Assembly: GCF_002854065.1 (NCBI RefSeq)
Contig: NZ_CP024147.1
DNA from: Escherichia coli
GTDB lineage: Bacteria > Pseudomonadota > Gammaproteobacteria > Enterobacterales > Enterobacteriaceae
Length of the DNA: 64,000 bases
Reading direction: 5' to 3' (one strand)
The number at the start of each line of letters is the position of its first letter. Position 1 is the first letter of the stretch. Below are positions 6,901 through 9,900 of this stretch, piece after piece. The position numbers are program-made.

Positions 6901-9900
6901 GCGTGGTGAAACCGTTGGGCAAGAACTGGCGGGTAACCCAAAGGTCGCAATGGTCAGTATGACAGGCAGCGTCTCTGCAGGTGAGAAGATCATGGCGACT
7001 GCGGCGAAAAACATCACCAAAGTGTGCCTGGAACTGGGGGGTAAAGCACCAGCTATCGTAATGGACGATGCCGATCTTGAACTGGCAGTCAAAGCCATCG
7101 TTGATTCACGCGTCATTAATAGTGGGCAAGTGTGTAACTGTGCAGAACGTGTTTATGTACAGAAAGGCATTTATGATCAGTTCGTCAATCGGCTGGGTGA
7201 AGCGATGCAGGCGGTTCAATTTGGTAACCCCGCTGAACGCAACGACATTGCGATGGGGCCGTTGATTAACGCCGCGGCGCTGGAAAGGGTCGAGCAAAAA
7301 GTGGCGCGCGCAGTAGAAGAAGGGGCGAGAGTGGCGTTGGGTGGCAAAGCGGTAGAGGGGAAAGGATATTATTATCCGCCGACATTGCTGCTGGATGTTC
7401 GCCAGGAAATGTCGATTATGCATGAGGAAACCTTTGGCCCGATGCTGCCGGTGGTCGCATTTGACACGCTGGAAGATGCTATCTCAATGGCTAATGACAG
7501 TGATTACGGCCTGACCTCATCAATCTATACCCAAAATCTGAACGTCGCGATGAAAGCCATTAAAGGGCTGAAGTTTGGTGAAACTTACATCAACCGTGAA
7601 AACTTCGAAGCTATGCAAGGCTTCCACGCCGGATGGCGTAAATCCGGTATTGGCGGCGCAGATGGTAAACATGGCCTGCATGAATATCTGCAGACCCAGG
7701 TGGTTTATTTACAGTCTTAATGAGTGAAAGAGGCGGAGGTTTTTTCCCTCCGCCTGTGCGCGTCAGAGTTTAGCGAATTTTTCGAGGGTGCGAATAAGCT
7801 GCGTGACGAAGCCATATTCGTTATCGTACCAGGCGACCGTTTTCACCAGTTGTAAATCGCCCACGGCGGTAATTTCCGTTTGCGTGGCATCAAACACTGA
7901 ACCGAAATGGCTGCCAATGATATCGGAAGAGACTATTTCTTCATCGGTATAACCAAATGACTCGTTATTGGTGGTTGCTTGTTTAAGTGCGTTATTCACC
8001 TCTTCGGCAGTCACTTTTTTTCCGAGAATGGACACCAGCTCAGTGACCGAACCTGTTTTCACCGGTACGCGTTGCGCATGACCTTTCAGTTTGCCGCTCA
8101 GTTCCGGTATCACCAGACCAATGGCTTTTGCCGCCCCCGTAGTGTGGGGAATGATATTTTCTGCCGCGGCGCGTGAAGCACGTAAATCTTTACCACGCGG
8201 GCCATCCACCAGTGACTGGGTGCCAGTATAGGCATGAATGGTCGTCATCGTGCCGACTTCTATCCCGAAACTGTCATGCAAGGCTTTGGCCATCGGCGCA
8301 AGACAGTTAGTAGTGCATGATGCCACGGAAACAATGGTGTCGTTGCCATCCAGAGTGTCGTCATTGACGTTATAAACGATAGTTTTCATTTCACCGGCAG
8401 GGGCGGAAATCAACACCTTCTTCGCGCCAGCATCAAGATGCGCCTGCGATTTCTCGGCGGAGGTATAAAAGCCAGTACATTCGACAATGATTTCTGTACC
8501 TTTCGCTTTCCACGGAATATTTTTAGCCTCTTTTTCGGCGTAAACCGCGATACTTTTCCCATTAACGATAAGTGAATCTTCCGTAAAATCAACGCTCCAG
8601 GGGAACGGTCCGTAGTTTGAATCATGTTTCAGCAGGTAGGCGAGAATTTTTGGAGAAGTGAGATCATTAATAGCGACAACGTCTATGTTGCTTTTGACTT
8701 CAAGTAATCGACGCAACACCAGTCGACCGATACGACCAAAACCGTTAATACCAACTTTACTCATGGTTTTCTCCTGTCAGGAACGTTCGGATGAAAATTG
8801 ATCCTTTCCAGGCTTAGACCAGGATGGCGGGATGGGCAATCTCCATTCTTACAGTGAAACGTAACGTACTGAAAACGGGTGAACAATATTTAATGAAATT
8901 TTGAGAAAAGCCCGTTATGTTAACGGAAAATTATGTTAAAGCAGGAAATGTTATGAAAAATAAATACTCAAGGTTACAAATCAGCATTCACTGGCTGGTC
9001 TTTTTGCTGGTTATCGCAGCGTATTGCGCAATGGAGTTTCGGGGTTTCTTCCCACGTAGCGATCGGCCGCTCATCAACATGATTCATGTTTCCTGTGGCA
9101 TCTCAATTCTCGTGCTGATGGTGGTTCGTCTTTTGTTAAGACTGAAATACCCAACCCCGCCGATTATACCTAAGCCGAAACCGATGATGACGGGACTGGC
9201 GCATTTGGGACATTTGGTGATTTATCTCCTGTTTTTTGCGCTGCCAGTGATTGGTTTGGTGATGATGTATAACCGGGGCAACCCGTGGTTTGCGTTTGGT
9301 TTGACGATGCCTTACGCTTCAGAGGCCAATTTCGAACGGGTAGATAGCTTAAAGTCGTGGCATGAAACGCTGGCGAATCTGGGATATTTTGTCATCGGTT
9401 TGCACGCTGCGGCTGCACTGGCACACCACTATTTCTGGAAGGACAACACACTTCTACGCATGATGCCGCGTAAACGTTCCTGAAGGATATTTAAAGAAAA
9501 CGCCTGTACTAAAACCGACCCGTGGTACAGGCGAAGAATACGGGTCTACATCGGAAGCGCCTATTATATTTATTTGTATGACAAATAAAACCATAATCCT
9601 TGCCCATACGTCCATCTGGCTTATTTTTAATCAATTCACCCGATCTTTGATCTCATCAACGGTATCAAAATAAACCAGCGTATAACGTTCAAATCGAACA
9701 TAAGATTCGATAAACCATGGAGGTTATATGAAAAAACTGGCACTTATTTTGTTTATGGGAACGCTTGTTTCCTTTTATGCCGATGCTGGGCGCAAACCCT
9801 GTTCTGGTTCGAAAGGGGGGATCTCACACTGTACGGCAGGCGGCAAATTTGTCTGTAATGATGGTTCTATTAGTGCCTCGAAAAAAACATGCACTAACTG

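What the first reader, a model, noticed from the sequence alone, without database searches (positions are those of the whole stretch)
9494..9557. rydC small RNA in the cybB-ydcA spacer
Seen in sequence: the minus strand matches the RydC sequence as I remember it (CTTCCGATGTAGACCC...GGCGTTTTCTTT), including the terminator hairpin and U-tail. It lies immediately downstream of cybB on the opposite strand.
Basis: partly seen in the sequence, partly recalled or inferred. Interest (0 to 1): 0.25.

Follow-up and report, generated by a model that had tools for sequence, protein, structure and literature searches.

The report
The known E. coli sRNA gene rydC

Summary
Confirmed and ordinary. Window 9494-9557 (minus strand) matches the Rfam RydC model end to end at 92.5 bits (threshold 48, E = 5e-17). 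It is base-for-base identical to rydC (b4597) of E. coli K-12, whose annotation adds one more T (9493-9557). It sits in the same cybB / ydcA spacer, convergent with cybB and 9-10 nt from its stop codon. The same 64 nt occur once each in 5411 of 5426 complete E. coli genomes.

All the known working parts are present:
- a single-stranded 5' seed
- both pseudoknot helices
- the terminator hairpin and U-tail that bind Hfq
- a perfect TATAAT -10 box.

In nine homologues from Escherichia, Citrobacter and Salmonella, helix 2 shows four compensatory pairs and helix 1 and the seed never vary. Seed nt 3-13 pairs without a break with the published site (-109 to -99) in the cfa leader of the near-identical strain CUWW06.

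One addition: a 15/15 match to the published YieP repressor motif lies at -29 to -15 of the promoter (9572-9586). This agrees with published YieP ChIP-exo and repression data. K-12 has one mismatch there.

Nothing here is new in kind.

The parts
9493..9557 (-). rydC, the gene for the small regulatory RNA RydC. It is 64 nt by Rfam (9494-9557) and 65 nt by the K-12 annotation (9493-9557). RNA nucleotide n corresponds to window coordinate 9558 - n.
   Evidence: Rfam RF00505: 92.5 bits against GA 48, model positions 1-64 of 64. 100% identical to K-12 b4597. One copy in 5411 of 5426 complete E. coli genomes.
9545..9557 (-). Single-stranded 5' seed (nt 1-13, CUUCCGAUGUAGA). Nt 3-13 are complementary to the cfa mRNA leader at -109 to -99.
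   Evidence: Nt 1-18 are invariant in all 10 aligned sequences from three genera. An 11-bp uninterrupted duplex (one G.U) forms with the cfa leader of K-12 and of strain CUWW06, -17.2 kcal/mol. The site is the one published in PMC4337610.
9540..9546 (-). Pseudoknot helix S1, 5' arm (nt 12-18, GACCCGU).
   Evidence: Pairs with nt 35-41: 7 bp, -10.5 kcal/mol. This is the helix modelled by Rfam. It is invariant in all homologues, so comparison gives no evidence for or against it. Published mutational and crystal evidence supports it (PMC4337610).
9517..9523 (-). Pseudoknot helix S1, 3' arm (nt 35-41, ACGGGUC). It lies inside the loop of S2.
   Evidence: The flanking pair A11/G42 (9547/9516) is a mismatch here and in K-12 but A-U in the other eight distinct homologues.
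9525..9533 (-). Pseudoknot helix S2 and terminator stem, 5' arm (nt 25-33, CGCCUGUAC). It lies inside the loop of S1.
   Evidence: 9 bp with nt 49-57, -13.8 kcal/mol. Across 9 distinct sequences 100% of cells are paired and 4 of 9 pairs change on both sides. Sliding the 3' partners drops pairing over all 17 pairs of the structure from 99% to 26-44%.
9501..9509 (-). Pseudoknot helix S2 and terminator stem, 3' arm (nt 49-57, GUACAGGCG).
9493..9500 (-). 3' U-rich tail (UUUUCUUU). It is the termination signal and the proximal-face Hfq binding site.
   Evidence: Read directly from the sequence. The role is taken from the RydC-Hfq crystal structure paper PMC4337610. It was not tested here.
9563..9568 (-). 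-10 box TATAAT of the rydC sigma-70 promoter (-11 to -6 relative to the annotated 5' end). There is no recognisable -35 box.
   Evidence: Sequence. TATAAT in 11 of 12 promoters compared, TATACT in C. koseri. PMC11340327 gives the same description.
9572..9586 (+). Candidate YieP (GntR/FadR-type repressor) operator, ATTTGTATGACAAAT, at -29 to -15 of the rydC promoter.
   Evidence: 15/15 match to the published ChIP-exo motif atTTGTaTGAcaAAT (PMC7642389). It is the only site in the 64-kb window with 2 or fewer mismatches; 200 shuffles give a mean of 0.00 at 0-1 mismatch. The same position holds the motif in 12 of 12 promoters, with 0-2 mismatches and none at a high-information position. YieP represses rydC about 20-fold (PMC11340327), and rydC and ydcA are listed among ChIP-exo-derived YieP targets. 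Binding at this exact site is inferred, not shown.
8953..9483 (+). cybB (cytochrome b561 / superoxide oxidase), the convergent neighbour. It is context, not part of the RNA.
   Evidence: The ORF ends at 9483. The K-12 annotation is 531 nt. cybB is adjacent to and convergent with rydC in all nine homologous loci.
9728..9901 (+). ydcA, the divergent neighbour on the promoter side. It is context.
   Evidence: 57-aa ORF. K-12 annotation.

Best explanation
This is the rydC gene. [quoted passage not shown] Transcription ends at the S2 hairpin plus U-tail (9493/9494) and gives an RNA of about 64 nt.

The RNA folds into an H-type pseudoknot: S1 is nt 12-18 with 35-41, and S2 is nt 25-33 with 49-57. 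This leaves the first 11-13 nucleotides single-stranded as a seed. Hfq binds the U-tail and the loop UU steps and stabilises the RNA.

The seed pairs with the long (sigma-70) isoform of cfa mRNA at -109 to -99. That pairing protects the mRNA from RNase E, opposes Rho-dependent termination, and so raises cyclopropane fatty acid synthase. Weaker repressive effects are reported on pheA and trpE, and effects on yejABEF and csgD are also reported.

Transcription is normally kept low by the GntR-family repressor YieP. YieP most likely binds the consensus palindrome at -29 to -15 and blocks RNA polymerase.

Shown here: identity with K-12 rydC, model score, synteny, presence and covariation of the helices, seed-target complementarity, and the promoter and operator motifs. 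Taken from the literature: Hfq binding, the effects on cfa, and YieP repression. Inferred: that YieP acts through this particular 15-mer.
For: - Rfam RydC: 92.5 bits against GA 48, full length, exact coordinates.
- 100% identity to the K-12 rydC RNA, and 300 of 301 nt identical with flanks.
- One copy in 5411 of 5426 complete E. coli genomes.
- Nine homologues from Escherichia, Citrobacter and Salmonella pass the Rfam threshold, while five control loci sharing only the 17-mer do not.
- cybB is convergent next to rydC in all nine homologous loci.
- Pseudoknot pair counts: 99.3% of cells paired, against 26-44% when the partners are slid. S2 has 4 compensatory pairs.
- The seed forms an 11-bp duplex at the published cfa site, in K-12 and in strain CUWW06, which is 100% identical to the window over 20 kb.
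- TATAAT and a YieP-consensus 15-mer sit at fixed positions in 12 of 12 promoters.
- Literature: PMC4337610 (pseudoknot, Hfq, cfa site); PMC11340327 (YieP repression, targets, RNase E and Rho mechanism); PMC7642389 (YieP motif, and rydC chosen from its ChIP-exo/RNA-seq target set).
Against: Nothing argues against the identification. There are limits on what was shown:
- S1 never varies, so comparison neither supports nor contradicts it.
- The nested single-sequence fold is no more stable than shuffles (z = -0.48). This is expected because such a fold cannot represent a pseudoknot.
- The simple consensus scans missed both the promoter (no -35 box) and the terminator (15-nt loop).
- Expression, Hfq binding and regulation in this particular strain were not and cannot be measured here.
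- PMC11340327 notes that an earlier ChIP-exo regulon, from glucose minimal medium, did not include rydC.
Confidence: 0.98

Rival explanations
1. The hairpin is simply the transcription terminator or 3' end of the convergent cybB gene, and no separate RNA gene exists.
For: The cybB stop codon is only 9-10 nt from the element. The S2 inverted repeat would also form a hairpin in a plus-strand transcript.
Against: - On the plus strand the hairpin is followed by GAAGAATAC, not a T-run, so it is a poor intrinsic terminator in that direction.
- The most conserved part is the 18 nt at the far end from cybB (the seed and the S1 arm), together with a fixed TATAAT and operator upstream on the minus strand. 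A cybB terminator does not explain this.
- In C. amalonaticus rydC lies about 1.65 kb from cybB yet is conserved.
- K-12 rydC is an experimentally detected RNA (PMC11340327).

A secondary role as a bidirectional terminator is not excluded.
Confidence: 0.01
2. The stretch encodes a small protein: the 53-aa ORF at 9454-9615 (-) or the 41-aa ORF at 9509-9634 (-).
For: Both ORFs appear in the mechanical ORF list and overlap the element.
Against: - Both ORFs begin upstream of the conserved -10 box and 5' end.
- Homologues differ by insertions and deletions of 1 and 2 nt inside the RNA body, which destroys any common reading frame.
- The variation that exists is compensatory base-pair change, the signature of an RNA structure.
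- The region upstream of -30 is poorly conserved.
Confidence: 0.005
3. It is a decayed, non-functional remnant of rydC in this strain.
For: RydC is barely detectable in wild-type cells under laboratory conditions (PMC11340327). RefSeq records show no feature at this position in any of the 15 sampled genomes.
Against: - The RNA is identical to the functional K-12 copy.
- The -10 box is perfect and the operator matches the consensus better than K-12's does.
- The cfa target site is intact in strain CUWW06, which is 100% identical to the window over its first 20 kb.
- Low expression is explained by YieP repression, and the missing annotation is a habit of the annotation pipeline.
Confidence: 0.005

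Closest known systems
RydC of E. coli K-12 MG1655 (b4597; Rfam RF00505)
   Same: The RNA sequence is identical (64/64, and 65/65 with the extra T). The strand, flanking genes, -10 box and terminator are the same.
   Different: There is one substitution in 301 nt. Window 9582 is G on the rydC strand where K-12 has A. This makes the YieP-motif match 15/15 here against 14/15 in K-12. The neighbouring gapC is intact here and a pseudogene in K-12.
RydC of Salmonella and Citrobacter (Salmonella is the organism of the isoform-specific cfa activation study and the source of the RNA in the Hfq co-crystal)
   Same: Nt 1-18, the S1 arms, the loop UU steps, the overall pseudoknot layout, the U-tail, the cybB neighbourhood and the promoter elements at -11 to -6 and -29 to -15 are all shared.
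   Different: The upper part of S2 carries compensatory substitutions: UAC/GUA here against GCGU/ACGC-type in the others. Loop lengths differ by 1-2 nt. Position 42 is G here (an A.G mismatch) and U there (an A-U pair).
Other Hfq-dependent, 5'-seed, mRNA-activating enterobacterial sRNAs that act on cfa (for example ArrS)
   Same: The logic is the same: pairing in the long cfa leader reduces mRNA turnover and raises translation (PMC11340327).
   Different: They are unrelated in sequence and are not reported to have RydC's pseudoknot fold. This is a comparison of mechanism only, and no membership is claimed. This comparison rests on the literature and was not tested here.

Membership tests
RydC sRNA (Rfam RF00505) | Scores at or above the curated gathering threshold of the family covariance model over its full length | tested here: met
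   92.5 bits against 48, model positions 1-64 of 64, E = 5.2e-17, minus strand 9557-9494.
RydC sRNA (Rfam RF00505) | Conserved single-stranded 5' seed, CUUCCGAUGUAG... | tested here: met
   Present at 9557 onward. Nt 1-18 are invariant in 10 sequences from Escherichia, Citrobacter and Salmonella.
RydC sRNA (Rfam RF00505) | H-type pseudoknot made of two interleaved helices (S1 and S2) | tested here: met
   The arms occur in the order S1-5', S2-5', S1-3', S2-3'. S1 is 7 bp (-10.5 kcal/mol) and S2 is 9 bp (-13.8 kcal/mol). S2 is backed by 4 compensatory pairs. S1 is invariant, so it is supported only by complementarity and by published mutational and crystal data.
RydC sRNA (Rfam RF00505) | Rho-independent terminator with a 3' U-tail, plus conserved loop UU steps that bind Hfq | tested here: met
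   The sequence features are present: the S2 hairpin followed by UUUUCUUU, and U23/U24 and U46/U47. Of these, U23, U24 and U46 are invariant columns in the alignment. Hfq binding itself is not testable with these tools; it is published for the Salmonella RNA (PMC4337610).
RydC sRNA (Rfam RF00505) | Conserved genomic position next to and convergent with cybB | tested here: met
   cybB ends at 9483 and rydC ends at 9493/9494. The arrangement is the same in K-12 and in nine other genomes.
RydC sRNA (Rfam RF00505) | Seed complementary to the cfa long-isoform leader at about -109 to -99 | tested here: met
   An 11-bp duplex (nt 3-13) at exactly -109 to -99 in K-12 and in strain CUWW06. Only 10 of 1000 shuffled seeds reach the observed energy of the 16-nt seed duplex.
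RydC sRNA (Rfam RF00505) | [quoted passage not shown] | tested here: met
   TATAAT at 9568-9563 and the YieP consensus 15-mer at 9572-9586. Repression itself comes from the literature (PMC11340327) and was not measured here.
RydC sRNA (Rfam RF00505) | Expressed as a discrete RNA of about 64 nt that regulates its targets in vivo | not testable with these tools
   This needs a northern blot, RNA-seq or reporter assays in this strain. It has been shown for the identical K-12 allele (PMC11340327).

The most novel reading that the evidence does not exclude
The 15-mer at 9572-9586 is the operator through which YieP directly represses rydC. Most E. coli would then carry a perfect-consensus operator: the 43-nt promoter segment is identical to the window in 3872 of 5415 genomes. 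K-12, the strain in which repression was measured, carries a one-mismatch variant. If so, RydC may be held off more tightly, or released at a different signal level, in natural isolates than in K-12. The stated probability is for direct operator function. A measurable difference between strains is much less likely, about 0.2.
Probability: 0.7. Interest if true: 0.15.

Novelty: already known. Interest (0 to 1): 0.07.

Why it matters
It matters little as a discovery. RydC has been characterised since the mid-2000s: its structure with Hfq, its activation of cfa, and its repression by YieP are all published. The value of this check is mainly in annotation. None of the 15 sampled RefSeq E. coli records had a feature at this position, so the element is easy to miss. 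The base-level placement of a consensus YieP site between the -35 position and the -10 box gives a simple mechanistic reading of the published repression and a ready site for mutagenesis. It refines known biology and does not add to it in kind.

Tried and rejected
- Nested minimum-free-energy folding of the 64-mer found only S2, with z = -0.48 against shuffles. This is uninformative, because a pseudoknot cannot be represented in such a fold. I evaluated the two helices separately instead.
- The consensus promoter and terminator scan found no promoter, because the real one lacks a -35 box. I read the -10 box and terminator directly and confirmed them by conservation.
- The 17-mer scan of genome contigs returned 65 loci, of which about 55 were chance matches in unrelated phyla. 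They were kept as negative controls: five were scanned with Rfam and none gave a RydC hit. One Salmonella diarizonae locus (L050) was cut off by the end of the stored stretch and left out.
- My first helix check used an S2 index off by one and gave a meaningless +11.5 kcal/mol. This was corrected.
- Two scripts failed because several loci are stored in one file. This was fixed.
- The coding reading of the overlapping 53-aa and 41-aa ORFs was rejected, because indels among homologues break the frame.
- The cybB-terminator-only reading was rejected, because there is no T-run on the plus strand and the conserved parts are the seed and the promoter.
- A YieP-like site upstream of yieP itself is weak: 4 mismatches, about 350 nt from the start codon. 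I did not use it as evidence.

Full report
**Observation.** The minus strand of window 9557-9493 reads CTTCCGATGTAGACCCGTATTCTTCGCCTGTACCACGGGTCGGTTTTAGTACAGGCGTTTTCTTT. A scan of the whole 64-kb window against all 4227 Rfam families gave three hits above threshold. One is RydC (RF00505) at 9557-9494 on the minus strand: 92.5 bits against a gathering score of 48, E = 5.2e-17, covering model positions 1-64 of 64.

**Identity and context.**
- The K-12 MG1655 record annotates rydC (b4597, 65 nt) between cybB and ydcA on the strand opposite to cybB.
- Aligning 301 nt around the element to K-12 shows one difference, at window 9582 in the promoter. The RNA itself is identical.
- The ORFs around it are aldA, an intact gapC, cybB (ends at 9483), ydcA (9728-9901), hokB and trg, in the K-12 order.
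- The first 20 kb of the window are 100% identical to E. coli strains CUWW06 and 100416.
- The 64-mer occurs exactly once in 5411 of 5426 complete E. coli genomes. It is at least 99% identical in 4063 records.
- None of the 15 sampled RefSeq records has a feature annotated under it.

**Relatives and controls.** An exact-pattern scan of one genome per species for the first 17 nt (one position free) gave 65 loci.
- Nine are full-length homologues from Escherichia, Citrobacter and Salmonella enterica subsp. arizonae. The other full-length hits share only the 17-mer.
- All nine pass the Rfam RydC threshold (65-90 bits). Five chance-match loci scanned as controls do not.
- In all nine, cybB lies convergent with rydC, 12 nt to about 1.65 kb away.

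**Structure.** The sequence contains two interleaved helices.
- S1 is nt 12-18 GACCCGU with nt 35-41 ACGGGUC (-10.5 kcal/mol).
- S2 is nt 25-33 CGCCUGUAC with nt 49-57 GUACAGGCG (-13.8 kcal/mol), followed by UUUUCUUU.
- The order of the arms is that of an H-type pseudoknot.
- On the 10-sequence alignment, 99.3% of cells form standard pairs, against 26-44% when the 3' partners are slid by 1-3 columns.
- S2 is 100% paired, and 4 of its 9 pairs change on both sides.
- S1 never varies, apart from the flanking A11/G42. That pair is a mismatch in the window and in K-12 and is A-U elsewhere.

S2 is therefore supported by comparison. For S1, the comparison is silent, and the support is complementarity plus published work: point mutations in helix 1 destabilise the RNA, and the crystal structure with Hfq agrees with the pseudoknot (PMC4337610). 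Nested folding of the single sequence is no better than shuffles, as expected for a pseudoknot.

**Target pairing.** PMC4337610 places the RydC-cfa duplex at -99 to -109 of the long cfa isoform.
- An unconstrained duplex search between the first 16 nt of the window's RydC and the 212-nt K-12 cfa leader found nt 3-13 paired without interruption to exactly -109 to -99. Only 10 of 1000 shuffled seeds reached the observed energy.
- I then fetched cfa from strain CUWW06. Its leader differs from K-12 at one position (-144), and the site TCTACGTCGGA is intact, giving -17.2 kcal/mol for nt 1-13.

**Promoter and regulation.**
- Upstream of 9557 lies TATAAT (9568-9563), with no recognisable -35 box. PMC11340327 describes the promoter the same way.
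- The promoter alignment shows a second conserved block, ATTTGTCATACAAAT, at 9586-9572.
- Its reverse complement, ATTTGTATGACAAAT, matches all 15 positions of the YieP ChIP-exo motif atTTGTaTGAcaAAT published in PMC7642389.
- It is the only site in the window with 2 or fewer mismatches. In 200 shuffles the mean count was 0.00 at 0-1 mismatch and 0.12 at 2 or fewer.
- The motif occupies -29 to -15 in all 12 promoters compared, with 0-2 mismatches and none at a high-information position. K-12 has one mismatch, caused by the 9582 substitution.
- The yohJ site, a validated YieP target, has 3 mismatches, also none at a high-information position.
- The 43 nt upstream of rydC are identical to the window in 3872 of 5415 E. 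coli genomes.
- Published work shows that YieP represses rydC about 20-fold in E. coli and 7.5-fold in Salmonella (PMC11340327).
- rydC and ydcA were among the candidates chosen from a combined YieP ChIP-exo and RNA-seq target set, and ydcA transcription did not respond to yieP deletion (PMC7642389).

A repressor bound between the -35 position and the -10 box would exclude RNA polymerase. That YieP acts through this exact 15-mer is my inference. I found no paper in the searchable library that states it.

**Mechanism.** In summary, YieP holds the promoter shut. When repression is relieved, a pseudoknotted, Hfq-bound RNA of about 64 nt is made. Its 5' seed pairs with the long cfa leader, protects it from RNase E and opposes Rho-dependent termination. 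This raises cyclopropane fatty acid synthase and changes membrane lipids. pheA and trpE are modestly repressed, and effects on yejABEF and csgD have been reported (PMC11340327).

**Rivals.**
- A cybB terminator with no RNA gene does not explain the invariant seed or the fixed promoter elements, and there is no T-run on the plus strand.
- The overlapping 53-aa and 41-aa ORFs are broken by 1-2 nt indels in the homologues.
- A decayed copy is excluded by identity with the functional K-12 allele.

**Verdict.** This is a known gene in its known place, and nothing here is new in kind. The only addition is the base-level placement of a consensus YieP site in the promoter, which is consistent with published binding and repression data.

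Noticed in passing
window 9582 (within 9572-9586): This is the only difference from K-12 in 301 nt around rydC, and it falls inside the YieP-motif palindrome. The window has the perfect consensus (G on the rydC strand) and K-12 has A, a low-information position of the motif. The 43-nt promoter segment is identical to the window in 3872 of 5415 E. coli genomes.
   Followed up: partly
window 9547 / 9516 (RydC nt 11 / 42): The pair that would extend helix S1 is an A.G mismatch in the window and in K-12, but A-U in the other eight distinct homologues, including two records labelled E. coli that differ from the window at three positions.
   Followed up: partly
window 7763-8764 (-): gapC is an intact 333-aa glyceraldehyde-3-phosphate dehydrogenase ORF here and in O157:H7, whereas K-12 annotates it as a pseudogene.
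   Followed up: no
window 10117-10268 (-): The Rfam 'sok antitoxin' model (RF01794, 111.5 bits) matches the minus strand, which is the strand of the hokB/mokB mRNA. K-12 annotates sokB on the plus strand, at about window 10170-10226. The model seems to describe the hok leader region rather than the antisense RNA's own strand.
   Followed up: no
window 47314-47442 (+): There is a full-length Rfam isrA hit (RF01385, 119.3 bits). The identical segment in strain CUWW06 lies on the opposite strand of an annotated truncated SymE-family toxin gene, just downstream of a truncated Vgr (type VI secretion) gene, which is window ORF 45704-47191. This suggests an antisense RNA of a symE-like toxin remnant.
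   Followed up: partly
E. coli RefSeq records at the rydC position (e.g. L002 3001-3064): None of the 15 sampled RefSeq genomes has any feature annotated under rydC. Only the curated K-12 record does. Five matches lie on records labelled as plasmids.
   Followed up: no
L045 (Citrobacter koseri NCTC10786) 8765-9295: The CybB match is split into three tblastn pieces, which suggests a disrupted cybB next to an intact rydC. In this species the rydC -10 box is TATACT and the asymmetric centre of the YieP palindrome is inverted.
   Followed up: no
window 5020-5034 and 34340-34354 (+): Two further YieP-motif-like 15-mers have 3 mismatches each, one of them at a high-information position. About 2 sites at this level are expected by chance in the window, so they may mean nothing.
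   Followed up: no
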